Below, piece after piece: positions 285 through 60,422 of a stretch of DNA of 64,000 nt. Both the position numbers and the translations under genes were made by a program. The stretch's first letter is position 1. Each line of letters opens with the position of its first letter. Source of the stretch: a virus; the IMG/VR virus record IMGVR_UViG_3300026097_000805, positions 115,648 through 179,647 of that record, one strand, 5' to 3'. The notes below the pieces were generated by a model, which saw nothing but the letters and a program-made list of their open reading frames with translations, ran no database searches and had not been told where the DNA came from.

Positions 285-360
285 TGGTGCTAGAGGACGG
301 AATCGAACCGCCGACACGAGAATCTTCAATACCCTGCTCTACCGACTGAGCTACTCTAGC
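285..360 (-). tRNA. tRNA-Phe(GAA)
   Basis: 76-nt cloverleaf, loop TT-GAA-GA, encoded CCA. Confidence 0.92.
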
Positions 361-364
361 ATTA

Positions 365-435
365 TGGTAGTAAATGATAGAATCGAACTATCTCTTCAGG
401 CTTATGAGACCCGAGTCCGGACCACCGGATTTACT
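365..435 (-). tRNA. Atypical CAT-anticodon tRNA (Met or Ile2)
   Basis: Acceptor AGTAAAT/ATTTACT, loop CT-CAT-AA, T-arm GATAG-TTCGATT-CTATC, CCA; D-arm non-canonical. Confidence 0.7.
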
Positions 436-436
436 A

Positions 437-519
437 TGGAGTGCAAGACAGGACTCGAACCTGCATAGTCTTACGACACGGATTTGCAATCCGATGCATA
501 ACCATTCTGCCACTTGCAC
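437..519 (-). tRNA. tRNA-Cys(GCA) with long variable arm
   Basis: 83 nt, loop TT-GCA-AA, discriminator U73, extra hairpin GTC-GTAA-GAC. Confidence 0.88.
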
Positions 520-520
520 A

Positions 521-596
521 TGGCTGGGGCGGAAGGACTCGAACCTCCAATCGACAGAATCAAAATCTGTTGCATTACCAATTATGCTACACCCCA
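521..596 (-). tRNA. tRNA-Gln(TTG)
   Basis: Cloverleaf, TTG anticodon, CCA. Confidence 0.93.
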
Positions 597-601
597 AAAC
601 T

Positions 602-677
602 TGGTGGACTCGCTCGGATTCGAACCGAGGACCAATTGATTAAAAGTCAACTGCTCTACCAACTGAGCTACGAGTCC
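602..677 (-). tRNA. tRNA-Lys(TTT)
   Basis: Cloverleaf, loop CT-TTT-AA, CCA. Confidence 0.95.
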
Positions 678-678
678 A

Positions 679-762
679 TGGTGGGGAAGGTAGGATTCGA
701 ACCTACTCACTTTACGAACTGATTTACAGTCAGCCGCGCCTCTCCAACTGCGCCGCTTCCCC
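679..762 (-). tRNA. tRNA-Tyr(GTA)
   Basis: 84-nt type II cloverleaf, CT-GTA-AA, CCA. Confidence 0.95.
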
Positions 763-763
763 A

Positions 764-839
764 TGGTGTCAAAGGATGGACTTGAACCATCGACCTAACG
801 GTTATCAGCCGTTTGCTCTACCAACTGAGCTACATTGAC
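764..839 (-). tRNA. tRNA-Ile(GAT)
   Basis: Cloverleaf, CT-GAT-AA, CCA. Confidence 0.95.
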
Positions 840-844
840 AAACT

Positions 845-918
845 TGGCACCGGTCCAGGGAATCGAACCCCGAGTTTCAGTTTTGGAGACTGACGTGTTG
901 CCATTACACTAGACCGAT
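845..918 (-). tRNA. tRNA-Trp(CCA)
   Basis: Cloverleaf, CT-CCA-AA, CCA end; first tRNA after attenuator 1. Confidence 0.93.
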
Positions 919-939
919 ATAAAACTTTTTCCTCCTACT

Positions 940-980
940 AAAAATAAAAAACCCCTGCTAATATCTCTACTAGCAGGGGT
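940..980 (-). terminator. Intrinsic terminator / attenuator 1
   Basis: ACCCCTGCTA-10nt-TAGCAGGGGT followed by TTTTTATTTTT; lies between the leader ORF and tRNA-Trp. Confidence 0.85.
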
Positions 981-1004
981 GCGTTAAATAACTTTTCTTG
1001 ACTA

Positions 1005-1082
1005 CTATGTCAAAAGCACACTCCTGCCTTCGCTAAACCAGCGAATGCAATATTGTTGAATATGTTTCATCATTGTAGTCAT
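1005..1082 (-). CDS. Putative attenuator leader peptide 1, MTTMMKHIQQYCIRWFSEGRSVLLT (25 aa)
   Basis: Manual translation; purine-rich AAAGAGA upstream, promoter ~40 nt upstream, double TAG stop, then terminator; codons match the downstream tRNAs. Confidence 0.75.
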   Translation of the reverse strand: MTTMMKHIQQYCIRWFSEGRSVLLT

Positions 1083-1119
1083 TTCTATTTCTCTTTGTTT
1101 AATTTCTTAGTATGTGTAT

Positions 1120-1148
1120 ACTATACACGTTTATTTATCTTCTGTCAA
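1120..1148 (-). promoter_or_regulatory. Sigma70-type promoter driving leader 1; spacer also contains GATAAATA late-type motif
   Basis: TTGACA-GAAGATAAATAAACGTG(17)-TATAGT. Confidence 0.8.
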
Positions 1149-1163
1149 CCGTTTATTTTACTT

Positions 1164-1187
1164 TTTGACAATTTAGATACAATATTT
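1164..1187. repeat. 24-bp inverted repeat copy A (pairs with 2564-2587)
   Basis: TTTGACAATTTAGATACAATATTT is the exact reverse complement of 2564-2587. Confidence 0.95.
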
Positions 1188-1191
1188 TAAA

Positions 1192-1266
1192 TGGTACACC
1201 GTAGGGGAATCGAACCCCTCTTTCCTGCGTGAAAGGCAAGCGTCCTAACCGATAGACGAACGGTGC
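1192..1266 (-). tRNA. tRNA-Glu(TTC)
   Basis: Cloverleaf, CT-TTC-AC, CCA. Confidence 0.94.
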
Positions 1267-1271
1267 ATATA

Positions 1272-1348
<77 letters not shown>

Positions 1349-1354
1349 AATAAT

Positions 1355-1447
1355 TGGCGGTGAGGGTGGGATTTGAACCCACGGAACGCTATTAACGTTC
1401 GTCTGTTTTCAAGACAGGTGCAATAAGCCGGACTCTGCCACCTCACC
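1355..1447 (-). tRNA. tRNA-Ser(TGA)
   Basis: 93-nt type II cloverleaf, CT-TGA-AA, CCA. Confidence 0.94.
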
Positions 1448-1454
1448 AATAAAT

Positions 1455-1740
1455 TGGCAGCCCGTTAGCCACACACCGTTGGAATGATGCTTGTGACCCC
1501 TACACTGTAATAGCCCTGCTGTCTAGTTTATCAGTCTAGGGCACAAACTATTGTTTAGGTATAGGACTTTTGCTTCTCACTAAAGACCGCCACGGACCAA
1601 CGGACGGCACTCTTTAGAACTAACACTAATGCAAAGAGCAAGTGGTTAACCAATGCATCGACCTAGTTACTTGATAGACTATATCATATCTTTCGCTACT
1701 ATCGGGCGGTTCAGGCCCTTATCGCCGTCTCTTTCGAGCT
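1455..1740 (-). ncRNA. Unknown ~286-nt structured RNA with acceptor-like stem and CCA end
   Basis: 5' AGCTCG pairs with 3' CGGGCT-G-CCA; several internal hairpins; occupies a tRNA slot in the array; no T-arm, no ORF. Confidence 0.6.
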
Positions 1741-1750
1741 AGTGTGTAGT

Positions 1751-1826
1751 TGGTAGCGGGAGCAGGAATCGAACCTACCTCAGTCCGGCTTATGAGACCA
1801 GTGAGTTCCCAGAACTCTATCCCGCA
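1751..1826 (-). tRNA. tRNA-fMet(CAT), initiator-like
   Basis: CT-CAT-AA loop, 1:72 mismatch (T/T), CCA. Confidence 0.85.
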
Positions 1827-1829
1827 ACT

Positions 1830-1903
1830 TGGAGCGGATACCGAGAATCGAACTCGGACGATCACGTTGGCAACGTGAGAGGCTACCTTTACATCATATC
1901 CGC
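1830..1903 (-). tRNA. tRNA-Gly(GCC)
   Basis: Cloverleaf, TT-GCC-AA, U73, CCA. Confidence 0.92.
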
Positions 1904-1907
1904 AATA

Positions 1908-1983
1908 TGGTGGAGATACGCGGGATCGAACCGCGGACCTGAAGCTTGCAAAGCTACTGCTCTCCCATCTGAGCTATATCCCC
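1908..1983 (-). tRNA. tRNA-Ala(TGC)
   Basis: Cloverleaf, TGC anticodon, G3:U70, CCA. Confidence 0.95.
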
Positions 1984-1988
1984 ATTAA

Positions 1989-2065
<77 letters not shown>

Positions 2066-2072
2066 TTTAATA

Positions 2073-2155
2073 TGGTGCCCTGGGGGAGACTCGAACTCCC
2101 ACTCCGAAGAACTGGTACCTAAAACCAGCGTGTCTACCAATTCCACCACCAGGGC
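2073..2155 (-). tRNA. tRNA-Leu(TAG)
   Basis: Type II cloverleaf, TT-TAG-GT, CCA. Confidence 0.94.
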
Positions 2156-2161
2156 AATTTA

Positions 2162-2236
2162 TGGTGCTGATGGAGAGAATCGAACTCCCAATCTACGCAT
2201 TACAAGTGCGTTGCCTTACCATTCGGCCACATCAGC
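2162..2236 (-). tRNA. tRNA-Thr(TGT)
   Basis: Cloverleaf, CT-TGT-AA, CCA. Confidence 0.93.
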
Positions 2237-2242
2237 AATATT

Positions 2243-2317
2243 TGGAGCGGGTGGACGGGATCGAACCGACGACACCTGACTTGGAAGGACAGTGCTCTAC
2301 CACTGAGCTACACCCGC
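2243..2317 (-). tRNA. tRNA-Gly(TCC)
   Basis: Cloverleaf, CT-TCC-AA, T-T mismatch in anticodon stem, CCA. Confidence 0.92.
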
Positions 2318-2321
2318 AATA

Positions 2322-2410
2322 TGGCGGAGCGACTGGGAGTCGAACCCAGTGAACGCGGTTAGCGTTCTACGGATTAGCAATCCGCTGCATTACCATCCTG
2401 CCCCCGCTCC
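2322..2410 (-). tRNA. tRNA-Ser(GCT)
   Basis: Type II cloverleaf, TT-GCT-AA, CCA. Confidence 0.94.
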
Positions 2411-2419
2411 GTATGTGTT

Positions 2420-2475
2420 TGGCTCTACCCTCCCCTCTGGGCGATTTAACTAACGAGGCATCTTGCGTTAGTACC
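2420..2475 (-). ncRNA. ~56-nt CCA-ending hairpin element (mini-RNA or tRNA remnant)
   Basis: ACTAACG/CGTTAGT hairpin, ends GCCA, flanked by the same short spacers as neighbouring tRNAs. Confidence 0.3.
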
Positions 2476-2480
2476 ATGTT

Positions 2481-2555
2481 TGGCTCCCGGTGTTGGAATC
2501 GAACCAACCAATGACGGATTAACAGTCCGCTCCCCCACCTTGGGGGCAACCGGGA
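2481..2555 (-). tRNA. tRNA-Asn(GTT)
   Basis: CT-GTT-AA loop, CCA; unusual C5/G5 D-stem. Confidence 0.9.
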
Positions 2556-2563
2556 ATAAACCT

Positions 2564-2614
2564 AAATATTGTATCTAAATTGTCAAAGAGCGTGTAGCAA
2601 GTTCTTCTTGCTAC
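2564..2614 (-). promoter_or_regulatory. rrn-like leader: boxB-like hairpin, boxA-like GCTCTTTGACAATTTA and inverted repeat copy B (2564-2587)
   Basis: GTAGCAAG-AAGAA-CTTGCTAC hairpin followed by a sequence resembling rrn boxA (TGCTCTTTAACAATTTA). Confidence 0.6.
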
Positions 2615-2625
2615 GTTATGTATAT

Positions 2626-2654
2626 ACTATACTACTTTATTCTGTGCCTGTCAA
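2626..2654 (-). promoter_or_regulatory. Sigma70-type promoter for tRNA array 2
   Basis: TTGACA-17bp-TATAGT. Confidence 0.8.
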
Positions 2655-2674
2655 CTACTATTTTGCCTTAAACC

Positions 2675-2713
2675 AAAAAAAAACCTTCCTTGCTGTGTGC
2701 TTGGAAGGTTTTT
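2675..2713 (-). terminator. Intrinsic terminator / attenuator 2
   Basis: AAAAACCTTCC-13nt-GGAAGG followed by T9. Confidence 0.85.
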
Positions 2714-2737
2714 GGAATCTTGTTAGCTAATGCTCGC

Positions 2738-2827
2738 TTACGTTCCGCAACCCTCCAGGCATAGACTACCCGCTGGATTTTCCGATCCAGGTGTCCATGT
2801 ATCTAATGTGAGTACGAATGTAAACAT
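2738..2827 (-). CDS. Putative attenuator leader peptide 2, MFTFVLTLDTWTPGSENPAGSLCLEGCGT (29 aa)
   Basis: Manual translation; AAGGA RBS and GATAAATA motif upstream; terminator 25 nt after stop; codons match array 2. Confidence 0.75.
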   Translation of the reverse strand: MFTFVLTLDTWTPGSENPAGSLCLEGCGT

Positions 2828-2916
2828 TGAAAGTTTTTTCCTTATTAACTATGCATTTATTTATCATCTAGATAAAAAACACGCACATATTGGCTTATTT
2901 TTGGAACTTTGCTGTG

Positions 2917-3513
2917 TTAATATCTCTTAGGATGAATAAATGAAGAAATAGAAAATCTACCATCTATTGCATCATCCGACTGCATTTTTACCGGTTCTAC
3001 ATTATGTATTAAACAACTGGGAAATAGCACAGTTCTTGCATTCTTCAGTTGAATATTGTTGCCTGCAATATTAAAATCTCCACCTGTAAACTTTTTTGGT
3101 TCCTTAAATAACCATGTAATACACGACATCAAAGCTGTATCTGCATGAGGCTTGTAATAGTCGCCTTCATTGTACCTTGATAACAACACGTCATACTCGA
3201 ACTCACAAAATAAGAATTCAAAAAAATTACTTTTGCTTGCTAAACTTTGCTTTATCTGTAGATCATAAAGTTTTTTATGAACATTAATAATATCACTATA
3301 TTCCGGATTTATCACTTGATGAATCCAGATTCCTTTATTCTTTTTTAAATCTTGGCCTGTTAGATCAATTGCTGACCCAGTATTATTAGGGTTAAGCAAC
3401 TTTGAAGACAAAAATGATACTTCTTTCCAAATTGCAGAAATTTCTTTGTCGTCAAAAAAATTGTCTATAATAGCAACAGGTAAGTCTTTTACTTTAAGGA
3501 TTTGTAAATGCAT
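2917..3513 (-). CDS. 2OG-Fe(II) oxygenase (prolyl-4-hydroxylase-like)
   Basis: HxD (YYKPHAD), GGDF, H...R-x-S motifs. Confidence 0.85.
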   Translation of the reverse strand: MHLQILKVKDLPVAIIDNFFDDKEISAIWKEVSFLSSKLLNPNNTGSAIDLTGQDLKKNKGIWIHQVINPEYSDIINVHKKLYDLQIKQSLASKSNFFEFLFCEFEYDVLLSRYNEGDYYKPHADTALMSCITWLFKEPKKFTGGDFNIAGNNIQLKNARTVLFPSCLIHNVEPVKMQSDDAIDGRFSISSFIHPKRY

Positions 3514-3518
3514 TTGAT

Positions 3519-3965
3519 TTACTTACTAAATTTTAGCGTATAAGTCTTACCATTGTTCCAAAACTTAATTGTGCTATGACTATAAACTTCTCGCTGGCGT
3601 TCTTCATATCGTGTTTCGATCGAGCATTGACGCTCCGTACGATAGCCTGTGACGCTTTGCTTGGACTGATTTTTATCAGCGGCAATCATACCTCCAATAA
3701 CGGCGCCAGCTGCCGCACCTTTGTCGTCACCCGAAGCACCTTTGCCAATAAGGCCACCAATAATCATACCACCTAGTACATCTCCTGCACTAGCACCACT
3801 TCCAGTCTGGCCGTACACAGGTACCTGTACATCCTTGCATACCTCTACACGATATGGCTCTTGTTCGATTACAGTTTTATAATGATCTTGTGTGACACCA
3901 CGAACATTTTCTGCAAGTGCAGGAGTTGCAATTAACATACACGAAGCAACAATAAATTTTCTCAT
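3519..3965 (-). CDS. Secreted glycine-zipper protein
   Basis: Signal peptide and GAAAGAVIGG repeats. Confidence 0.75.
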   Translation of the reverse strand: MRKFIVASCMLIATPALAENVRGVTQDHYKTVIEQEPYRVEVCKDVQVPVYGQTGSGASAGDVLGGMIIGGLIGKGASGDDKGAAAGAVIGGMIAADKNQSKQSVTGYRTERQCSIETRYEERQREVYSHSTIKFWNNGKTYTLKFSK

Positions 3966-7741: not shown

Positions 7742-7949
7742 AATTAACTACCTTGACATTGCGTTCTTTGCCTTCGATGGTAAATGTTCTTGCATACTCT
7801 AATGCATCGTTGATGTCGTCAAACAACACAGGACGCAGGTCCCACATGTCACACGACCCTGTGTCTTCTGTGACAAAGATCCAATCGTCTTTGCCGTCCA
7901 AACATACCATTATCGCCCAAGGTTGATCTGTGTAATCTTCAAGACTCAT
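7725..7949 (-). CDS. Hypothetical protein
   Basis: Start revised to MSLEDY. Confidence 0.6.
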   Translation of the reverse strand: MSLEDYTDQPWAIMVCLDGKDDWIFVTEDTGSCDMWDLRPVLFDDINDALEYARTFTIEGKERNVKVVNYDEAI

Positions 7950-8094
7950 TCCAGGTAAATCCACAAAAATAATCGCCTCTAGGGCATTGTCCGTTATTAA
8001 ATCCAATATCTCGATTCTCGCCGCCACCTAGAAATGCAAATACACCTCCAGTTGCGCCAAACATCAATACCATTCCAATTATTACTTCTTTCAT
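7939..8094 (-). CDS. Small membrane-anchored protein (51 aa)
   Basis: Manual translation MKEVIIGMVLMFGATGG...CPRGDYFC. Confidence 0.55.
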   Translation of the reverse strand: MKEVIIGMVLMFGATGGVFAFLGGGENRDIGFNNGQCPRGDYFCGFTWNES

Positions 8095-8246: not shown

Positions 8247-8545
8247 TATCCTTCCTTCTCTAAATCCCACTGTACCTTATTAGGTGGTGCTGGAGGAGTT
8301 CTTGACTTCTCCTTGGTGAATACATAAAAAGTAAAGAACAAACAAGTAAGAAGCACGGTGTGTCCAATAATGTTGTATCCAATAAACAGTAGTTCTGCTG
8401 TGTAGATACCAAAGCCGATACACCACATTGCCGCAAGTAGATTGCTTGCTAAGAACTTGTATTCCATAGGACTGTTGCGTAGTCCGTTCTTTGTAGCATC
8501 CAAGATGCCGTAGGCAAAAGTGCCCAAGTTAATCCAACCTCTCAT
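8246..8545 (-). CDS. Membrane protein
   Basis: Two hydrophobic segments. Confidence 0.7.
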   Translation of the reverse strand: MRGWINLGTFAYGILDATKNGLRNSPMEYKFLASNLLAAMWCIGFGIYTAELLFIGYNIIGHTVLLTCLFFTFYVFTKEKSRTPPAPPNKVQWDLEKEG

Positions 8546-9681
8546 TTTAAAATCTCCACGATTCTTTCTGCTAATTGTTTAAACCATTCAGCATCCTTGC
8601 CCCGTGTAGTCTCTGCGGCTGTGCCAATTCTAATACCACTTGTTTCTACAAACGAACGTGGATCATTTGGTACGCCATTCTTGTTTACTGTGATGCCATT
8701 CTCTTCCAATAAGTCTGCGGCTTCACGACCTGAATGTTTACTTTCACTCAAGTCAAGTAATAGTATATGCGAATCCGTGCCTCCTGTCAAGAGTTTAAAG
8801 CCATTATCTACAAATACTCTTGCCATTGCTTGTGCATTGTGTACAACACGACTTGCATAGTCAATAAACTCGTCTGTGTTTGCTTCTGCGAATGCCTGTG
8901 CTTTTGCGGCAACAATGTTCATCAATGGTCCGCCCTGTGTGCCTGGGAAGATTGCTGAGTTTATCTTTTTAGTAAAGAACTCATCGTTCCAAAGAATAAT
9001 GCCGCCGCGAGGCCCACGCAAAGTTTTGTGTGTTGTGCTTGTGACAACATCTGCATAATCACAGGGATTAGGATATGCTTTGCCAGCAATCAAGCCACTG
9101 TAATGTGCCATATCAACCATAAAGATTGCGCCTACTTGATCTGCAATATGACGCATTTCTTCCCAGTCAATGCGGCGTGGATATGCACTTGCCCCTGCAA
9201 TAATCATAGCAGGTTCTACTTCCAGTGCTTGTTTCATAATAGCATCATAGTCTAACCAACCTTCATCGTTTACACCATAACTGTGTGCTTCAAACCATTT
9301 GCCACTTACATTCGCTGGTGATCCGTGTGATAAATGTCCACCACTTGCCAAGTCCATTCCTAGGATTTTATCACCTGGTTGTAAAAATGCTTTGAACACA
9401 GCAAGGTTAGCGTTAGCACCTGAATGCGGTTGAACATTGGCAAATTCACATCCATACAGTTCTTTGAGTTCGTCAATGGCAAGTTGCTCAACCTCATCCA
9501 TGTGCTCGCAACCATTGTAGTATCGCTTGCCTGGATAACCTTCTGCATACTTGTTGGTAAACACACTACCGCACAATTGCATAACTGCTTCACTTGCAAA
9601 GTTTTCACTGGCAATAAGTTCTACTGTTTGATACTGTCTGTCTGTTTCTTTTGCAAGAATGTTATTGATTCTTTGATCCAT
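8542..9681 (-). CDS. glyA: Serine hydroxymethyltransferase
   Basis: ELIASENF, NKYAEGYPGKRYY, TTHKTLRGPRGG (PLP Lys), SGIRIGT; start MDQR. Confidence 0.97.
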   Translation of the reverse strand: MDQRINNILAKETDRQYQTVELIASENFASEAVMQLCGSVFTNKYAEGYPGKRYYNGCEHMDEVEQLAIDELKELYGCEFANVQPHSGANANLAVFKAFLQPGDKILGMDLASGGHLSHGSPANVSGKWFEAHSYGVNDEGWLDYDAIMKQALEVEPAMIIAGASAYPRRIDWEEMRHIADQVGAIFMVDMAHYSGLIAGKAYPNPCDYADVVTSTTHKTLRGPRGGIILWNDEFFTKKINSAIFPGTQGGPLMNIVAAKAQAFAEANTDEFIDYASRVVHNAQAMARVFVDNGFKLLTGGTDSHILLLDLSESKHSGREAADLLEENGITVNKNGVPNDPRSFVETSGIRIGTAAETTRGKDAEWFKQLAERIVEILK

Positions 9682-9931
9682 TGTTTTTCCTTTGTTCATA
9701 GTCGTGCATTAGTACAGTTAGCTCATCTAACTCATTGCCGCTTTGTATTACTTCTGGACACTTCCTTGATATCATGTCTAAATCGTAAGGACGGGGATAA
9801 TGTCGCAGACAACTACGTGCCATGTTTCTAACTTCTCTAGACACTCGCGGTGTCTTCTTAGGATCGCACAAGTCCAACAGAAACTTTTCTGTGTACCGTA
9901 AACTGTTGTAGCGTTCACATGGCAATGTCAT
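9662..9931 (-). CDS. Conserved phage hypothetical protein
   Basis: MTLPCERYNSL...TPRVSREVR...CLRHYP. Confidence 0.7.
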   Translation of the reverse strand: MTLPCERYNSLRYTEKFLLDLCDPKKTPRVSREVRNMARSCLRHYPRPYDLDMISRKCPEVIQSGNELDELTVLMHDYEQRKNNGSKNQ

Positions 9932-39063: not shown

Positions 39064-39097
39064 AAAAAAGAGTGTTGCATCGCTACAACACTCTTTT
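39064..39097 (-). terminator. Terminator after tmRNA
   Basis: AAAAGAGTGTTG-8nt-CAACACTCTTTTTT. Confidence 0.8.
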
Positions 39098-39104
39098 GCT
39101 ATGT

Positions 39105-39393
39105 TTGATAACAAGGTCTAACTACCTCGTAGCGATTAAGCCGCTAATGCCGTTTCTGGCGCATAATTGTCGTTTGCAATTATAGTTTTCGTTCGCGTTA
39201 ACCGAGCTTACATCCGGACAACTCCACTTACCTATTAAACGTCAATCGATCCTATCTCAGCCCCATCATAAACACATGCCCGACGTTTCTTATGTCTCAA
39301 TATGCTATCTGCATATCCAGCACATGTGCTTATGGTGGAGCTGCCGGGATTCGCACCCGGGTCTTGTCCGTCGTTGAGTTTGCTTCAACGTTG
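39105..39393 (-). ncRNA. ssrA: Two-piece circularly permuted tmRNA, tag ANDNYAPETALAA
   Basis: Acceptor piece ...CCGGGTGCGAATCCCGGCAGCTCCACCA (CCA ends 39333), spacer, coding piece from GGGGCTG (39264), G3:U70, tag ORF 39136-39177; outer ends approximate. Confidence 0.92.
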
Positions 39394-39424
39394 TAGTATA
39401 TTTATAACACAATTCTAAAATGTG

Positions 39425-39598
39425 TCAACCTAAAAATACCAAACCCCAGCCGTGATTGGCAATTGCATTCAGTATAATAGCAAGACAGGTAGCAATGTGT
39501 AAAAGTATCCACACTGTGCGGATCATTGCTACCTTATCTGCTTTGCGGTCGTCGTCATAGGCTTTGTGACCTATAGCTTTACACCACAGTTCCCACAT
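39425..39598 (-). CDS. Small membrane protein (57 aa)
   Basis: Manual translation MWELWCKAIG.KA..DD..ADKVAMIRT. Confidence 0.6.
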   Translation of the reverse strand: MWELWCKAIGHKAYDDDRKADKVAMIRTVWILLHIATCLAIILNAIANHGWGLVFLG

Positions 39599-55916: not shown

Positions 55917-55983
55917 TATTACAACTCCGTAATGTATTTAGCAAGTCGATAAATATGATTAGCACACTTGAGGGAGAGGGCTA

Positions 55984-56769
55984 ATGTCAATATCAAAGAT
56001 GAACTTTGCTGATCGTTCTCTATTGTTCGCTAAACTATCTAGTATAGCTTATAATGATAACATCAAAGAAGTGAAAAAACAAGTAAAAGCGTTAGGATTC
56101 ACAACTGTTGAATTCTACGATAGAGATGGCGCACAGGCATATCGTTTCCAAAACGCAGACGATTTAGTAATTGCTTGTCGCGGCACACAACCAACATGCT
56201 GGAACGATGTCAAGGCAGATCTACAAGCAATGCCTGTCGTTGCAGAAACAATTTCAAGGGTACACCAAGGATTTAAAACAGAAGTAGATGACCTGTGGCC
56301 TATGATCGTAGAAGACATCACAAGAACACAGAACTTAGATAATAAACTATGGTTCTGCGGACATAGCCTAGGAGCAGCAATGACTACTATCATGGCAAGT
56401 CGTTGTCATCACGACCCTGAACTACCTGATCCAATTGAAACTTATACGTATGGTTCACCTAGAGTGGGCTGGCCCACATATGTTAAGAGTCTAGGAATGA
56501 CTCATCATCGCTGGGTAAACAACAACGACATTGTGTGCAGAGTGCCGTTAACCATCATGGGCTACAGACACCACGGTGAAGAACATTACATGAATGCGTT
56601 TGGTAATATTCGTAAAGTCACAGGCTGGCAGCGTTTCAAAGATCGTATGCGTGGCATGTGGATGGGTATCAAGCAAGGCAAGATTGACAACTTTGGTGAT
56701 CATGACATGAGTGGCTATATTCATAATTTAGAAATGTATGCACAAGGCAAGGAAAACAGTCAACGCTAG
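55984..56769 (+). CDS. Lipase class 3 (alpha/beta hydrolase)
   Basis: ACRGTQ, GHSLG, TYGSPRVG, NNDIVCRVP, DH. Confidence 0.92.
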   Translation: MSISKMNFADRSLLFAKLSSIAYNDNIKEVKKQVKALGFTTVEFYDRDGAQAYRFQNADDLVIACRGTQPTCWNDVKADLQAMPVVAETISRVHQGFKTEVDDLWPMIVEDITRTQNLDNKLWFCGHSLGAAMTTIMASRCHHDPELPDPIETYTYGSPRVGWPTYVKSLGMTHHRWVNNNDIVCRVPLTIMGYRHHGEEHYMNAFGNIRKVTGWQRFKDRMRGMWMGIKQGKIDNFGDHDMSGYIHNLEMYAQGKENSQR

Positions 56770-57497
56770 GTCTTGCGGACGCGACGATTATATTCAATTG
56801 CTTCTTGCAGTATTGACAGCTCAACGTTTTCTCGTTGAGCTGTTCTTATGAGTGCGCTAGTATCTTTAGGAAAACAATGTCCGCCGAAGCCTCGTTCTTC
56901 TGTAATGAATGTATGACTATCACCGATGCGTTCGTCCATGGTTGTATAGTGTGCAACTGCTGAATATTCTACATCAAGTGCATTACACAAATCATACAGT
57001 TGATTGAAGTATGCAACCTTTAGTGCAAGGAAACTGTTGCGAGCATATTTGGCCAAGACAAGTTCACGAGGCTCTGCGATTTCTGTGCTAACTCCAAACA
57101 CGTCTTTCCAAAAGCAGGTATTGGTTCCGCCGATAAGCATTAAATTCATGTTGGTAATATCTTCCAACCAACTTGCTTCTCTAAGAAACTCTGGACTAAA
57201 ACTTATCATTCGATTGGGGAACGCATCAACCAACATATCCCAACCTTCTACTGAAATTGTGCTTTTGATCAAGATAGGCACATCTGGCGCTGCATCTATA
57301 ACGTTAAACACATTGTCCATTTTGCATCCGCCGCCAGCATTAGGAGGTGTTGCTACACACACAATCACTGCATCGATATCATCGTAAGAATTAGTGTACC
57401 CGAGTGCGGGATCATTGATCACAACATCATGTTTAAACTTTAAGACTTCGTAATGTGCTCTTCCAACAAAGCCGTATCCTGCAATTAATATTTTCAT
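56766..57497 (-). CDS. UDP-glucose/GDP-mannose 6-dehydrogenase family (short form)
   Basis: GYGFVG, VCVATP, IKST, PEFLRE, KYARN, GFGGHCFPKD. Confidence 0.9.
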   Translation of the reverse strand: MKILIAGYGFVGRAHYEVLKFKHDVVINDPALGYTNSYDDIDAVIVCVATPPNAGGGCKMDNVFNVIDAAPDVPILIKSTISVEGWDMLVDAFPNRMISFSPEFLREASWLEDITNMNLMLIGGTNTCFWKDVFGVSTEIAEPRELVLAKYARNSFLALKVAYFNQLYDLCNALDVEYSAVAHYTTMDERIGDSHTFITEERGFGGHCFPKDTSALIRTAQRENVELSILQEAIEYNRRVRKT

Positions 57498-57706
57498 TGT
57501 GTGTTATCTTTCTTGAGTAAGTGATGCATTACTATAATTATTAAGAGTGTGACCATCCAAGCCTGCCATATTGGCAATGCACTGTTGTCTAAGTTTTCTT
57601 TGATCCATGCACGATCAAAAAACGAACCTAAAAAGGACACACTAATTAAAGTTGTAAAGTAGGCTATAAATGGTATTGATATTATTTTATACAATAACTT
57701 TTTCAA
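57494..57706 (-). CDS. Small two-TM membrane protein
   Basis: Hydrophobic; ATGA overlap with dehydrogenase. Confidence 0.6.
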   Translation of the reverse strand: MKKLLYKIISIPFIAYFTTLISVSFLGSFFDRAWIKENLDNSALPIWQAWMVTLLIIIVMHHLLKKDNTQ

Positions 57707-57710
57707 TTTG

Positions 57711-58424
57711 TCAATCCCAATATTTGCTGTAGTCTATATTATCCCAATACTGTTCGTTGTTGCGATTCCAAAAGTTTTTAACCAAATACCAAGCCATGCC
57801 AAAGTATCCCATCTTTTGAAAGCGTCTGCTGTCCTGACCAAAGTGATGTGAGATCAATCTAAACTTTTCTGGGCTGTACAGTTTGCTGAGGAAGAAGTCT
57901 TCTGATGTCACATAACGACAAGGAAAGCAGCCTAGTTCTTCAAATCTATCTCTGCGTGTCAACATAAAAGCACCTACCGCGAATGGAACAAAGTGTTGCA
58001 TCACACTGTTGACCATGTTGAATATACTAAATCCAATCTGTGCTCGCCAGTCTCCGTCATAGCATTTGATATACATGCCCAATAGATCTAAGTTCTGTGA
58101 TTCAAACACTGCCACACTATCCGCGATTTCAGTGTGAGTAAAGAAACGCACGTCTGCATCTATGAATAGAATGTAGGGTGTTTTGGCATGACTGGCGCCA
58201 TTGTTCTTGGCTTCACTTACTGGACCGCCTTGGACTACTTTGATGTTTAACTTGTGTTGACGTTTCTTTTGTGCGATTACTTTACGAGTATCATCGTCAC
58301 TAGCGTCTGCTATTATTATCTGTGTGTCAGGCACCTGTCGTGCTAGATCATCTAGCAGGTGTCCTATGTAGTCTTGCTCGTTCTTAGAGGGTATGACTAT
58401 CGTTATCTTGTTCTTCAAACTCAT
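57711..58424 (-). CDS. Glycosyltransferase family 2
   Basis: IVIPSKNE, IIADAS, FIDAD, SEDF; start MSLKNK. Confidence 0.9.
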   Translation of the reverse strand: MSLKNKITIVIPSKNEQDYIGHLLDDLARQVPDTQIIIADASDDDTRKVIAQKKRQHKLNIKVVQGGPVSEAKNNGASHAKTPYILFIDADVRFFTHTEIADSVAVFESQNLDLLGMYIKCYDGDWRAQIGFSIFNMVNSVMQHFVPFAVGAFMLTRRDRFEELGCFPCRYVTSEDFFLSKLYSPEKFRLISHHFGQDSRRFQKMGYFGMAWYLVKNFWNRNNEQYWDNIDYSKYWD

Positions 58425-59181
58425 CTTCTGTTCCATCGTTGTTGTATTTGTAGAACAGGACTTCCCATTCTCCCGACTCATGTTCTAGTAGTGCTGAACA
58501 ACTCTCAACCCAATCGCCACTGTTCTTGTATTCAATGTCGTTGATTGTTTTCATTTCTGCGGTGTGAATGTGCCCACATATGGCGCCGTCATAGCCTTTT
58601 TTGTAGCAGTAAAGCGCAACATGCTCTTCAAAGCTGTTGATGTAGTTCACAGCACTCTTGGTCTTTGATTTGAGAAACTTGCTCAAACTCCAGTAGGGCA
58701 AGCCTAACCAACCTCTCACTGTGTTGAAGTGTGTGTTTGTCCATATCAGAAAGTTGTAGGCAGCATCACCTAGATGCATGATCCACTTTTTGTTGGGCAT
58801 CATAAGATTGTCAAACATGTCGCCGTGAACCACTAGATACTTCTTGCCGTTTACTGCTCTATAATCATAACGATTTAACACACGTATGCGTCCGATATCA
58901 ATATCAAAGTTTAGATACTTGCGCAGTGCTTCATCGTGATTGCCCAGTATGTAGTACACTTTGGTATCGCGTTTGGCTGCTGTGAATATTCTGCGTATTA
59001 CGTTAGCGTGGCTTTGTGGGAAGTACCAACGGTTCTTTAGTCGCCATCCGTCCACTATGTCGCCAACTAAAAATAAATTTTCGCAAGTATTTTCTTTTAA
59101 AAAAGAACAAAGGGCGTCTGCTTGACAACCCCTTGTCCCTAGATGTATATCTGAAATGAATATACTTTTGTAATGCATCAA
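58384..59181 (-). CDS. plcP: PlcP/LpxH-family metallophosphoesterase (phospholipase C of lipid remodelling)
   Basis: FISDIHLG, VGDIVDGWRL...WYFPQSH, GNHDE, HGD.FD, SLS..LK.K.K, CGHIH, NSGDWVES. Confidence 0.75.
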   Translation of the reverse strand: MMHYKSIFISDIHLGTRGCQADALCSFLKENTCENLFLVGDIVDGWRLKNRWYFPQSHANVIRRIFTAAKRDTKVYYILGNHDEALRKYLNFDIDIGRIRVLNRYDYRAVNGKKYLVVHGDMFDNLMMPNKKWIMHLGDAAYNFLIWTNTHFNTVRGWLGLPYWSLSKFLKSKTKSAVNYINSFEEHVALYCYKKGYDGAICGHIHTAEMKTINDIEYKNSGDWVESCSALLEHESGEWEVLFYKYNNDGTEDEFEEQDNDSHTL

Positions 59182-59197
59182 TTATTTAATCGATTCT

Positions 59198-60133
59198 TTA
59201 CTCAACTGTGATCAATCCGAGATCTTCTAACATGCCACCTGGTGCACTCAATTGCTTAAACTTAGCAATATATTCTTCGATGCCCGGAACTAGTCCAACA
59301 TGCTCTTCTTTCACATAGTAATAAAGTGCTCTTGAAATTGGATATGAACTATCAGCAATTGTTTCAAATGTAGGATTTACACCGTCTACGATTGCACCTT
59401 GTACCACATCAGAATTTTGATCTAAAAACGAGAATCCAAAAACACCGTAACGATTCTTGTCATCACCTAGTTTTTGCACAATTAGGTTATCGTTCTCTGT
59501 CATTTCAACAACATAACCATCTGTTCGAACAGGAGTACATAACTTTTTGTATTCTTTTTTGCTAAGACCGTATTGCTTTTTACAGGTTTGATGCATCACA
59601 AGTTCAACCAATGCATCTCTAGTTCCAGATGTAGTTGGAGGAATCATCATGGCAATTTCCAAATTCGGAAGACTGCTGTCAATCTCATTCCATCTTGTGT
59701 ATGGGTTTTCAATCCAACCGTTGTCACTTGGAATTTGATATGCCATAGCAAGATACAGTTGCTGAAGTGTGACGGTAAGAAGTGTGCCGTCCTTTGAGTT
59801 TGCAATAACAATACCATCATATCCAGCGAGATATTCAACTGGAGTCACACCGTTCTTTTTACAATCGTCAATTTCTTTTTGCTTAATTGCTCTTGAAGCG
59901 TTTGTGATGTCCGGATATGTAGTTCCTAGCCCCGAGCAGAAGATTTTAAGGCCTCCACCTGAACCTGTCGATTCTACAACAGGAGTTTTGAATCTAGAAT
60001 CTTTTCCAAGATTTTCTGCTACTGCTGTTGAAAATGGGAACACTGTTGATGAACCCACAATTGAGATATATTCCCGTGCTTGAGCACCAACGCTCAATAG
60101 AGCAACCAGTGCTCCTACTAACATAGTTTTCAT
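59198..60133 (-). CDS. pstS: Phosphate ABC transporter substrate-binding protein
   Basis: GSSTVFP, ESTGSGGG...FCSG, DITNASR, PPTTSGTRD, YPISR.LY.YVK; start MKTML. Confidence 0.92.
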   Translation of the reverse strand: MKTMLVGALVALLSVGAQAREYISIVGSSTVFPFSTAVAENLGKDSRFKTPVVESTGSGGGLKIFCSGLGTTYPDITNASRAIKQKEIDDCKKNGVTPVEYLAGYDGIVIANSKDGTLLTVTLQQLYLAMAYQIPSDNGWIENPYTRWNEIDSSLPNLEIAMMIPPTTSGTRDALVELVMHQTCKKQYGLSKKEYKKLCTPVRTDGYVVEMTENDNLIVQKLGDDKNRYGVFGFSFLDQNSDVVQGAIVDGVNPTFETIADSSYPISRALYYYVKEEHVGLVPGIEEYIAKFKQLSAPGGMLEDLGLITVE

Positions 60134-60190
60134 AGTTTGATAACCTCCTTTAACTACTAACATTATGTATGATAATGATAGCACATAATT

Positions 60191-60208
60191 ATTACAATTT
60201 TATTACAT
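60191..60208 (-). promoter_or_regulatory. Pho-box-like 11-bp-period direct repeat
   Basis: ATGTAAT-AAAA-TTGTAAT vs consensus CTGTCAT-AAAA-CTGTCAT (14/18), ~60 nt upstream of pstS. Confidence 0.65.
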
Positions 60209-60260: not shown

Positions 60261-60422
60261 TTAGAAGCCATCAGCCAATGTCCACTTGTGATTAAAAGAC
60301 TTGCCTTTCGCTTTACGTTCTGCAATCTTACGAAACTCTTCCATGCGTAGTTCTTCAATTGCTTGTGCGTTGTGGGAAAGAGAAGCTTTGTACATTTCTT
60401 TGATTAGTTTAGTCTGTTTCAT
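60261..60422 (-). CDS. Small basic protein (53 aa)
   Basis: Manual translation MKQTKLIKEMYKA...; AGGAG RBS. Confidence 0.55.
   Translation of the reverse strand: MKQTKLIKEMYKASLSHNAQAIEELRMEEFRKIAERKAKGKSFNHKWTLADGF

What the first reader, a model, noticed from the sequence alone, without database searches (positions are those of the whole stretch)
55984..60208. Pho-box-controlled phage module for phosphate-starvation lipid remodelling (pstS-plcP-GT2-TM-ugd, plus convergent lipase)
Seen: a Pho-box-like repeat precedes five tightly packed co-oriented genes: PstS, a PlcP/LpxH-type phosphoesterase, a GT2, a small membrane protein and a UDP-sugar dehydrogenase. A class-3 lipase converges on them. 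Established: marine alphaproteobacteria under P limitation use PhoB-regulated PlcP to release DAG and phosphate from phospholipids, and a glycosyltransferase (Agt, GT4) to make glucosyl/glucuronosyl-DAG from UDP-glucose or UDP-glucuronate. Inference: the phage mines host membrane phosphate for DNA synthesis and backfills with glycolipid, with GT2 replacing Agt and Ugd supplying UDP-GlcA. This would go beyond the known phage pstS/phoH genes. An LpxH-type lipid A role cannot be excluded.
Basis: partly seen in the sequence, partly recalled or inferred. Interest (0 to 1): 0.8.

Follow-up and report, generated by a model that had tools for sequence, protein, structure and literature searches.

The report
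Phage phosphate-starvation membrane lipid-swap operon
A large uncultured phage carries, behind a phosphate-starvation control site, a phosphate-binding protein, a PlcP-type enzyme that cuts the phosphate head off membrane lipids, and a virus-specific sugar-adding enzyme, so it probably mines its host's membrane for phosphorus, a viral trait I found in no searchable paper.

Summary
On the minus strand, 56766-60208 is one tight operon: Pho-box-like repeat, pstS, a metallophosphoesterase, a GT2, a 70-aa two-helix membrane protein and a short Ugd-like dehydrogenase. A class-3 lipase converges on it.

- **Phosphoesterase:** it is PlcP-type, not LpxH. It scores 46 bits against an LpxH cut-off of 134. 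In a tree it sits with agt-linked SAR11 plcP and apart from true LpxH of genomes that hold both paralogs.
- **GT2:** it fills the Agt slot. Of 87 viral plcP loci, 53 are followed by a GT4 and 11 by this GT2. Of 69 viral GT2 loci with upstream sequence, 66 have plcP upstream. The GT2 was absent from 401 alphaproteobacterial genomes sampled.
- **Pho box:** chance alone gives about one hit per window, but it is about 80-fold enriched just upstream of plcP across viral loci.
- **Weaker parts:** the "Ugd" lacks the UDP-binding domain. It belongs to a common viral short family usually found without plcP. The lipase has its own promoter-like motif and is a backbone gene of this phage lineage.

Earlier follow-ups in this scan reached the same reading on other phage DNA. 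I found no paper describing viral PlcP; surveys list such genes as "lpxH".

The parts
60191..60208 (-). Pho-box-like direct repeat (TGTAAT, 5 nt, TGTAAT; 11-bp period), overlapping the -35 position of the pstS promoter
   Evidence: Sequence read and pattern hit. It is the only such site before a gene in the whole record. The same repeat class lies 41-59 nt upstream of plcP or pstS in other viral loci and is about 80-fold enriched there.
60169..60180 (-). Two tandem TATCAT -10-like hexamers, 9 nt downstream of the 18-bp box
   Evidence: The consensus scan found TTGTAA, a 17-nt spacer, then TATCAT.
59198..60133 (-). pstS: periplasmic phosphate-binding protein with an N-terminal signal peptide
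   Evidence: PF12849, E 6e-41. TIGR02136 scores 136 bits, below its subfamily cut-off of 206.6. Translation. It is 47-48% identical to Pelagibacteraceae PstS and shows 68% DNA identity to pstS of pelagiphage Mosig.
58384..59181 (-). plcP-type metallophosphoesterase (predicted phospholipase C that releases diacylglycerol)
   Evidence: PF00149. LpxH models score 46 and 30 bits against cut-offs of 134 and 190. It is 53% identical to Pelagibacteraceae genes that are followed directly by a GT4. The tree places it in the PlcP-like clade, split from LpxH with 99/96 support. All metallophosphoesterase metal-ligand motifs are invariant.
57711..58424 (-). GT2 (GT-A fold) glycosyltransferase, predicted diacylglycerol glycosyltransferase. 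The ORF is open up to 58481.
   Evidence: PF00535, E 8e-17, and PF13506 (GT21) at 31 bits against a gathering score of 21.7. The DAD (DXD) and ED motifs and an aromatic/basic C-terminal tail are conserved. AlphaFold2 pLDDT is 87, with generic GT2 structural matches. Of 69 viral homologue loci with upstream sequence, 66 have plcP upstream.
57494..57706 (-). 70-aa protein with two hydrophobic helices and a TTG start
   Evidence: Translation and hydropathy. About 30% identical homologues lie downstream of the cassette in L002, L003 and L177 (E about 1e-5). No family hit.
56766..57497 (-). Short NDP-sugar dehydrogenase-like protein: UGDH N-terminal and central domains, no UDP-binding C-terminal domain
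   Evidence: PF00984, E 1e-24, and PF03721. It aligns to residues 82-302 of a 446-aa UGDH. The catalytic Cys208, Lys150, Asn154 and Asp212 are conserved in the family. AlphaFold2 pLDDT is 96.7, with TMq 0.86 and TMt about 0.5 to UGDH structures. No PF03720 match anywhere in the record.
55984..56769 (+). Class-3 lipase, convergent, without a signal peptide, with GHSLG serine motif
   Evidence: PF01764, E 9e-18, and phrog_21992. Translation. Found beside o86/o388 homologues in many related loci, with or without plcP.
55948..55955 (+). GATAAATA motif about 30 nt upstream of the lipase start, a candidate phage-type promoter
   Evidence: 7 hits against 3.7 expected, 6 of them on the minus strand, which carries most of the window's genes. 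Similar GATAAATAT or GGTAAATAT elements follow the Pho boxes of related loci.

Best explanation
This is a phage auxiliary operon for phosphate stress, wired to the host's PhoB/PhoR switch.

Proposed mechanism:
1. When the infected cell is phosphate-starved, host PhoB binds the Pho-box-like repeat and drives transcription of the operon.
2. PstS is exported and raises phosphate capture.
3. The PlcP-type phosphoesterase cuts the phospho-head group off host glycerophospholipids, leaving diacylglycerol. The released phospho-alcohol feeds the phosphorus pool needed for phage DNA.
4. The GT2 glycosylates the diacylglycerol from a UDP-sugar, so the membrane is back-filled with phosphorus-free glycolipid. 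It takes the place of the GT4 enzyme Agt and, being an inverting GT-A enzyme, probably makes a beta-linked product.

Shown here: gene content and order, family assignments, PlcP rather than LpxH placement, the near-obligate plcP-GT2 pairing, and the positional conservation of the Pho box.

Inferred: enzyme activities, PhoB binding, and the benefit to the phage.

The small membrane protein is a conserved but unexplained accessory. The short Ugd-like dehydrogenase may supply a uronic-acid sugar donor, but its link to the pathway is weak. The lipase is probably a separate late gene.
For: PlcP identity:
- LpxH equivalog models are far below cut-off.
- Six beta- or gammaproteobacterial genomes hold both a true LpxH (219-262 bits) and a separate paralog that matches the phage protein at 48-52% identity.
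- The tree splits LpxH from the clade holding the phage protein and agt-linked SAR11 and Holophagaceae genes, with 99/96 support.
- SAR11 plcP followed by agt is the published, experimentally supported 'type 2' operon (PMC4796936).
- Characterised PlcPs are only 46-47% identical to each other (PMC8528852).

Pathway context:
- IMG/VR holds at least 290 viral stretches with plcP.
- Of 87 distinct loci with downstream sequence, 53 have an Agt-like GT4 (38% identical to the SAR11 one) and 11 have this GT2. The two never occur together in that slot.
- At least 265 viral stretches carry the GT2. Of 69 with upstream sequence, 66 have plcP upstream.
- The GT2 was not found at E <= 1e-20 in 401 alphaproteobacterial genomes. 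In 301 Bacteroidia genomes, 5 matched at E <= 1e-10: one is the binned phage-like contig L009, and only one other is a full-length relative (36% identity, E 8e-35).

Regulation:
- 8 of 22 strict Pho-box hits in 2.2 Mb of viral loci lie within 100 nt upstream of plcP, against about 0.1 expected.
- 7 of 56 further plcP-GT2 loci have one at -41 to -55.
- Spacing to the -10 element fits PhoB promoters.

PstS has a signal peptide. An alpha-type tmRNA points to an alphaproteobacterial host.
Against: - No experimentally characterised PlcP sequence could be placed in the tree by name. Orthology rests on synteny and identity.
- No curated PlcP model exists in Pfam or NCBIfam.
- Nothing in the GT2's sequence or fold points to a lipid acceptor. 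Structural matches are generic GT2 enzymes, and the best NCBIfam hit is an unrelated subfamily below its cut-off.
- The Pho box count in the window equals chance. Most plcP-GT2 cassettes in other phages have no Pho box and sit inside other operons.
- The host and its PhoB site are unknown.
- PlcP releases phospho-alcohols, not free phosphate, so further host phosphatases are needed.
Confidence: 0.7

Rival explanations
1. PlcP works as proposed, but the GT2 (with the short dehydrogenase) glycosylates something other than diacylglycerol. Candidates are a surface polysaccharide or O-antigen, to block superinfection, or phage DNA or virion components.
For: - A weak PHROG hit to GtrB-like O-antigen conversion, E 6e-6.
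- Structural neighbours are wall-teichoic-acid, polysaccharide and polyprenyl-phosphate GT2 enzymes.
- The short dehydrogenase family elsewhere sits in nucleotide-sugar clusters with phosphomannomutase, a nucleotidyltransferase and an epimerase, unrelated to plcP.
Against: - The GT2 family is almost never found without plcP directly upstream (66 of 69).
- It alternates with the lipid glycosyltransferase Agt in the same slot.
- It shares the Pho-box promoter.
- It has no transmembrane segments of the GtrB kind.
Confidence: 0.15
2. The phosphoesterase is an LpxH-type UDP-2,3-diacylglucosamine hydrolase, and the module adjusts lipid A or LPS synthesis, as viral gene surveys annotate it.
For: - The best-named NCBIfam hits are LpxH models.
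- JGI, and GenBank for pelagiphage Mosig, call homologues LpxH.
- AMG surveys list viral lpxH under LPS synthesis.
Against: - Scores are 46 and 30 bits against cut-offs of 134 and 190.
- Genomes with a true LpxH keep this protein as a second, distant paralog.
- The tree separates the two with 99/96 support and a very long branch.
- The partner genes are Agt-like or GT2 enzymes and pstS, not lpx genes.
Confidence: 0.03
3. PlcP, alone or with the lipase, serves mainly to degrade or weaken the host membrane for lysis or fatty-acid release, with no phosphorus-sparing purpose.
For: - A cytoplasmic class-3 lipase lies next to the operon.
- Some viral plcP genes have no glycosyltransferase partner (23 of 87).
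- Some are behind late-promoter-like motifs rather than Pho boxes.
Against: - In this window plcP is co-transcribed with pstS from a Pho-box promoter and followed by a glycosyltransferase that would repair the lipid loss.
- The lipase has its own promoter-like motif and occurs without plcP in related phages.
Confidence: 0.07
4. The cassette is recently captured host DNA, or an assembly or binning artefact, with no role for the phage.
For: - The record is only about 50% complete.
- One related contig is binned in a Crocinitomicaceae MAG (L009).
Against: - The cassette sits between conserved phage genes (the o53 homologue and lipase/o86/o388) in several related contigs.
- Viral homologues at 55-93% identity keep intact active sites.
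- The GT2 and short dehydrogenase families are predominantly viral.
Confidence: 0.03

Closest known systems
Bacterial PlcP-Agt lipid renovation operon (Sinorhizobium meliloti SMc00171; Phaeobacter MED193_17359; SAR11 HTCC7211 PB7211_983 and PB7211_960; P. aeruginosa PA3219/PA3218). Sources: PMC4796936, PMC8231724, PMC8528852.
   Same: - A PlcP-type metallophosphoesterase is followed directly by a glycosyltransferase.
- A Pho box lies in the promoter.
- The phage PlcP is 53% identical to agt-linked SAR11 genes.
   Different: - The operon is encoded by a phage.
- The partner is a small, virus-specific GT2 (inverting GT-A fold), not the GT4 Agt (retaining GT-B fold).
- pstS is fused into the same operon.
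- A 70-aa membrane protein and a short dehydrogenase follow.
Phage phosphate-stress auxiliary genes under host PhoBR control (cyanophage pstS and phoA; phoH). Recalled from my own knowledge of Zeng and Chisholm 2012, not re-read here.
   Same: - A phage pstS sits behind a Pho box.
- The logic is to relieve phosphorus limitation of phage DNA synthesis.
   Different: - It adds an internal phosphorus source, the membrane phospholipid, and a lipid replacement step.
- The host is probably a heterotrophic alphaproteobacterium.
LpxH (UDP-2,3-diacylglucosamine diphosphatase)
   Same: - Same calcineurin-like metallophosphoesterase superfamily and the same metal-binding motifs.
- Databases give homologues this name.
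   Different: - Far below the equivalog cut-offs.
- A separate clade from LpxH of the same genomes.
- A different gene neighbourhood.
Lipid glycosyltransferases of GT-A type: Pgt (GT21) next to plcP in some Rhodobacterales ('types 3 and 5' of PMC4796936), and cyanobacterial MgdA (GT2; from my own knowledge)
   Same: - A GT-A enzyme downstream of plcP.
- A PF13506 (GT21) hit above the gathering score.
- DXD and ED motifs.
   Different: - Only about 236 aa, with no membrane-spanning segment.
- No close bacterial relatives in the genomes sampled.
- The activity is untested.
UDP-glucose 6-dehydrogenase (Ugd/UGDH)
   Same: - NAD-binding and central domains.
- Catalytic Cys, Lys, Asn and Asp retained.
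- Structural match with TMq 0.86.
   Different: - Lacks the whole C-terminal UDP-binding domain.
- Belongs to a large, mostly viral family of 240-290-aa proteins.
Pelagibacter phage Mosig EXVC030M (MT647606), gene Mosig_00120
   Same: - A cultured phage with a PlcP-type gene, 56% identical, next to pstS.
   Different: - pstS and plcP are divergent there.
- There is no glycosyltransferase partner.
- It is annotated as a putative UDP-2,3-diacylglucosamine hydrolase and is not discussed in its genome announcement.

Membership tests
PlcP (phosphate-starvation phospholipase C) | Calcineurin-like metallophosphoesterase with intact metal-ligand motifs (DxH, GD, GNH, H, GHxH) | tested here: met
   PF00149, E 9e-17. 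D11, H13, D41, N81, H82, H119, H204 and H206 are invariant in alignment A1.
PlcP (phosphate-starvation phospholipase C) | Falls with plcP genes of lipid-renovation operons and apart from LpxH | tested here: met
   Tree, 99/96 support. It is 53% identical to SAR11 genes followed by a GT4. Named, experimentally characterised sequences could not be fetched, so this is orthology by synteny.
PlcP (phosphate-starvation phospholipase C) | Operon partner that makes a phosphorus-free lipid from diacylglycerol | tested here: inconclusive
   A glycosyltransferase follows directly, but it is a GT2 of untested activity.
PlcP (phosphate-starvation phospholipase C) | Phospholipase C activity on glycerophospholipids | not testable with these tools
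   Needs an enzyme assay or lipidomics.
LpxH | Score above the NCBIfam equivalog cut-off (NF003743 134 bits; TIGR01854 190 bits) | tested here: not met
   46.1 and 30.3 bits. True LpxH of six genomes scores 219-262 bits.
PhoB-dependent promoter (Pho box) | Two direct repeats of about 7 bp at an 11-bp period, replacing the -35 element, about 10 bp upstream of the -10 | tested here: met
   TGTAAT-N5-TGTAAT at 60191-60207, 9 nt before TATCAT. It matches 14 of the 16 specified bases of the published consensus CTGTCATNNNNCTGTCAT.
PhoB-dependent promoter (Pho box) | Conserved at the same position in related operons beyond chance | tested here: met
   8 hits within 100 nt upstream of plcP against about 0.1 expected. 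A further 7 of 56 loci have one.
PhoB-dependent promoter (Pho box) | PhoB binding and low-phosphate induction | not testable with these tools
   Needs EMSA, a reporter or a transcriptome. The host is unknown.
PstS | Type-2 periplasmic binding fold of the phosphate-binding family, plus an export signal | tested here: met
   PF12849, E 6e-41. A signal peptide is read. TIGR02136 scores 136 bits, below its subfamily cut-off of 206.6.
Agt (GT4 diacylglycerol glucosyl/glucuronosyl transferase) | GT4 family, GT-B fold | tested here: not met
   The window's enzyme is GT2 with a GT-A fold. It is not a member of the Agt family, though it sits in Agt's place.
GT2 glycosyltransferase | PF00535 domain with DXD motif and GT-A fold | tested here: met
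   62 bits against a cut-off of 23.3. DAD at residues 89-91 is invariant. Foldseek gives E 2e-12 to TarS and PcManGT.
UDP-glucose 6-dehydrogenase | NAD-binding and central domains with the catalytic Cys in GGxCxxKD, plus Lys and Asn | tested here: met
   The motif reads GGHCFPKD.
UDP-glucose 6-dehydrogenase | C-terminal UDP-binding domain (PF03720) | tested here: not met
   The protein ends at the position equivalent to residue about 302 of a 446-aa UGDH. There is no PF03720 match in the record, while the control search found it in all 14 control genomes. It is therefore not filed as a standard Ugd.
Class-3 lipase | PF01764 domain with the GxSxG nucleophile | tested here: met
   65 bits against a cut-off of 22. 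GHSLG is present.

The most novel reading that the evidence does not exclude
Many unrelated aquatic phages carry a two-gene cassette in which PlcP is paired with a small, virus-only GT2 enzyme that is a new kind of diacylglycerol glycosyltransferase. In some phages the cassette is wired to host PhoB. Infection in phosphorus-poor water would then convert host phospholipid into a (probably beta-linked) glycolipid that the host itself does not make, while feeding the freed phosphorus to phage DNA. In this phage a short dehydrogenase that works without a UDP-binding domain may add a uronic-acid head group.
Probability: 0.5. Interest if true: 0.8.

Novelty: new variant of a known kind. Interest (0 to 1): 0.7.

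Why it matters
Membrane phospholipid is one of the largest phosphorus stores in small aquatic bacteria, and phage DNA synthesis is phosphorus-hungry. A phage-encoded, phosphate-switched lipid renovation pathway would be a new class of auxiliary metabolism alongside pstS, phoA and phoH.

- It would change how viral 'lpxH' genes in ocean and lake surveys are read. They are currently filed under LPS synthesis.
- It predicts that infection alters the lipid make-up and phosphorus quota of cells in phosphorus-poor waters.
- The GT2 partner offers a compact, untested candidate glycolipid synthase with almost no cellular relatives.
- The short dehydrogenase family raises a clear enzymological question: how does a UGDH work without its nucleotide-binding domain?

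Tried and rejected
- **Single-protein scan of genome contigs:** found nothing. The alignment-based scan worked.
- **phmmer of PlcP against PDB sequences:** no hit at E <= 0.01, so there was no structural anchor. I ran no further search on it.
- **GT2 against GenBank phages:** no match.
- **GT2 in bacteria:** apart from the binned phage-like contig L009, only one full-length relative in 301 Bacteroidia genomes (36% identity), and that one has no plcP nearby. None at E <= 1e-20 in 401 Alphaproteobacteria. I could therefore not tie it to the 'uncharacterised glycosyltransferase' that PMC4796936 lists next to plcP in Bacteroidetes.
- **Fold search of the GT2:** gave only generic GT2 neighbours.
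- **PADLOC:** no hit for any of the six proteins, so a defence or anti-defence reading was dropped.
- **Split-Ugd idea:** rejected for the part of the genome held, because no C-terminal domain is encoded elsewhere. The record is only about 50% complete.
- **'Ugd is specifically linked to plcP':** rejected.
- **Literature:** searches for PlcP with phage, viral or auxiliary metabolic genes found no paper on a virus-encoded PlcP. Subscription journals were not searched.

Full report
**Setting.** The window is the last 64 kb of a 179.6-kb IMG/VR virus record judged about 50% complete. It is plainly a large phage. It holds 20 tRNA genes and a tmRNA, a class Ia ribonucleotide reductase closest to those of large myophages and a virion protein. 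The tmRNA matches the permuted and alphaproteobacterial Rfam families, which points to an alphaproteobacterial host.

**Observation.** On the minus strand, 56766-60133 holds five tightly packed genes. Pfam assigns them as follows:
- PBP_like_2 (PstS), E 6e-41.
- Metallophos, E 9e-17.
- Glycos_transf_2, E 8e-17.
- No family for the 70-aa ORF.
- UDPG_MGDP_dh central and N-terminal domains for the last gene.

Lipase_3 (E 9e-18) converges from 55984.

Reading the sequence moves the pstS start to the ATG at 60133, behind AAGGAGG. The product has a signal peptide. Homologues of the GT2 are 235-238 aa, so its start is probably at 58424. No terminator-like site lies on the minus strand.

The repeat TGTAAT-N5-TGTAAT sits at 60191-60207, 9 nt before TATCAT. 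It matches 14 of the 16 specified bases of the published consensus CTGTCATNNNNCTGTCAT.

**Is the phosphoesterase PlcP or LpxH?**
- LpxH equivalog models score 46 and 30 bits against cut-offs of 134 and 190.
- An alignment-based scan of species genomes found 393 relatives. The best are Hyphomonadaceae and a Coraliomargaritaceae MAG at 64-68% identity, with many Pelagibacteraceae at 53%.
- In the Pelagibacteraceae and Holophagaceae loci the gene is followed directly by a GT4. This is the published plcP-agt 'type 2' operon, whose SAR11 members were tested experimentally (PMC4796936).
- Six beta- or gammaproteobacterial genomes hold both a true LpxH (219-262 bits) and, elsewhere, the paralog that resembles the phage protein.
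- A maximum-likelihood tree separates the five LpxH sequences from a clade holding the phage protein, 11 other viral proteins and the agt-linked bacterial genes, with 99/96 support and a very long branch.
- The metal-ligand residues are invariant.

**A viral trait, not a one-off.**
- IMG/VR holds at least 290 stretches encoding relatives, and I kept 96 distinct loci.
- Of the 87 with room downstream, 53 have a GT4 directly after plcP, 11 have the GT2 and 23 have neither. The GT4 is 38% identical to the SAR11 agt-like gene.
- Starting from the GT2 instead, at least 265 viral stretches encode it.
- Of the 69 best loci with at least 900 nt of upstream sequence, 66 have plcP upstream on the same strand, 65 of them within 400 nt.
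- The language-model atlas places the GT2 among clusters that are mostly 100% viral.
- It was not found at E <= 1e-20 in 401 sampled alphaproteobacterial genomes. In 301 Bacteroidia genomes, 5 matched at E <= 1e-10. One is the binned phage-like contig L009, and only one other is a full-length relative (36% identity), which has no plcP beside it.

So the GT2 is a near-obligate, virus-specific partner of PlcP that alternates with Agt. That is the strongest available evidence that it acts on PlcP's product.

Its sequence has DXD and ED motifs and a conserved tail rich in Trp, Tyr, Lys and Arg that would suit an interfacial enzyme (my inference). Its model (pLDDT 87) matches only generic GT2 structures. 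As a GT2 it should invert the anomeric configuration, unlike the retaining Agt.

**Regulation.**
- Counted alone, the repeat is at chance level in the window: 1 hit against 0.86 expected.
- It is the only properly placed site in the whole record.
- The same repeat class appears upstream of the first gene of the cassette in diverged loci, with different sequences: TGTAAT.., TGTCAT.., TGTTAT...
- In 2.2 Mb of viral loci, 8 of 22 strict hits fall within 100 nt upstream of plcP on the coding strand, against about 0.1 expected. Six of the eight are distinct sequences. Three more hits lie upstream of a preceding pstS.
- In the plcP-GT2 loci of other lineages, 7 of 56 upstream regions have one at -41 to -55.
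- Most of those other cassettes have no intergenic space and no Pho box, so PhoB wiring is a feature of some phages, including this one, and not of all.

**The weaker parts of the reading.**

*The short dehydrogenase.*
- The last gene aligns to residues 82-302 of a 446-aa UGDH and keeps the catalytic Cys, Lys, Asn and Asp.
- It folds with pLDDT 96.7 onto half of UGDH, with TMq 0.86 and TMt about 0.5.
- The UDP-binding domain is absent, and it is not encoded elsewhere in the record.
- It is not a pseudogene. An exhaustive search found a large family whose best 150 representatives are mostly 240-290 aa. The nearest atlas clusters are 94-100% viral, and IMG/VR has at least 594 stretches.
- Among the 79 nearest viral loci, none has plcP, the GT2 or the Agt-like GT4 within 6 kb.
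- In other phage lineages it sits with phosphomannomutase, a nucleotidyltransferase and an epimerase, which points to nucleotide-sugar metabolism in general.
- In 13 loci of this phage lineage it lies directly against the convergent lipase with no cassette upstream. It does turn up near plcP in roughly eight other contigs, with GT2 or GT4 partners.
- Supplying a uronic-acid donor, which Agt-type enzymes accept (PMC8231724; PMC8528852), therefore remains possible but unproven.

*The lipase.* It has no signal peptide. It has its own GATAAATA motif and ribosome-binding site. It belongs to the conserved lipase/o86/o388 backbone.

*The 70-aa membrane protein.* It has about 30% identical counterparts at the end of the cassette in three related loci. 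Its role is unknown.

**Known or new?**
- The bacterial pathway is well established.
- In the searchable literature no paper links PlcP to a virus.
- Two viral gene surveys list 'lpxH' under LPS synthesis.
- The one cultured phage with a close homologue, pelagiphage Mosig (56% identity, next to pstS), annotates it as a UDP-2,3-diacylglucosamine hydrolase, and its genome announcement does not mention it.
- Earlier follow-ups in this scan reached the same reading for other phage genomes. I treat these as leads only. The tests above were done independently here.

**Verdict.** The Ugd and lipase extensions are not supported. All activities remain to be shown at the bench.

Noticed in passing
window 285-2555 and 39066-39446 (minus strand): There is an array of 20 tRNA genes, plus a phage tmRNA that matches both the permuted and the alphaproteobacterial Rfam families (111 and 86 bits). 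This suggests an alphaproteobacterial host.
   Followed up: partly
L110 (= L191) 2172-3782 and 8287-9900: One viral contig carries two plcP-GT2 cassettes about 6 kb apart. They are 51% and 68% identical to the window's plcP, and each has its own Pho-box-like repeat.
   Followed up: no
L003 about 7940-8000; L110, L289, L292, L293, L300, L311, L316 upstream of plcP: In related loci the Pho-box-like repeat is followed by a GATAAATAT, GGTAAATAT or TATAAATA element rather than a sigma-70 -10 hexamer. This hints at combined host PhoB and phage-type promoter control.
   Followed up: partly
L339-L402 (e.g. L342 1750-10138): In other viral lineages the short Ugd-like gene sits in a conserved cluster with a family-B DNA polymerase, a cytidylyltransferase-like protein, a phosphomannomutase and an NAD-dependent epimerase. 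This looks like a phage nucleotide-sugar pathway of unknown product.
   Followed up: partly
L129, L130, L141, L147 and others, directly upstream of plcP (e.g. L129 7996-8937): Another viral plcP lineage has a 313-aa NAD-dependent epimerase/dehydratase gene just upstream of plcP-GT4. It may provide a second sugar donor.
   Followed up: no
L088-L092 (e.g. L088 1063-1671): In the abundant group represented by P0026, which is identical on 91 contigs, plcP is followed by a 202-aa protein with no Pfam family instead of a glycosyltransferase.
   Followed up: no
L220 (MT647606 93031-94866): Pelagiphage Mosig has pstS and the plcP-type gene divergently arranged around a 150-bp spacer. The spacer holds TTAACA-type repeats at an 11-bp period, a possible shared Pho box.
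   Followed up: no
L008 (Coraliomargaritaceae MAG) in the tree: This bacterial plcP nests inside the viral clade, as sister to viral L009 with 96/91 support. That could reflect virus-to-cell transfer, a prophage or a binning error. L009 itself is a phage-like contig binned in a Crocinitomicaceae MAG.
   Followed up: no
window 60261-60422 (minus strand): A 53-aa ORF just upstream of the Pho box has homologues in the same position in several related phages (46-70% identity). It marks a conserved insertion site for the variable cassette between it and the lipase.
   Followed up: partly
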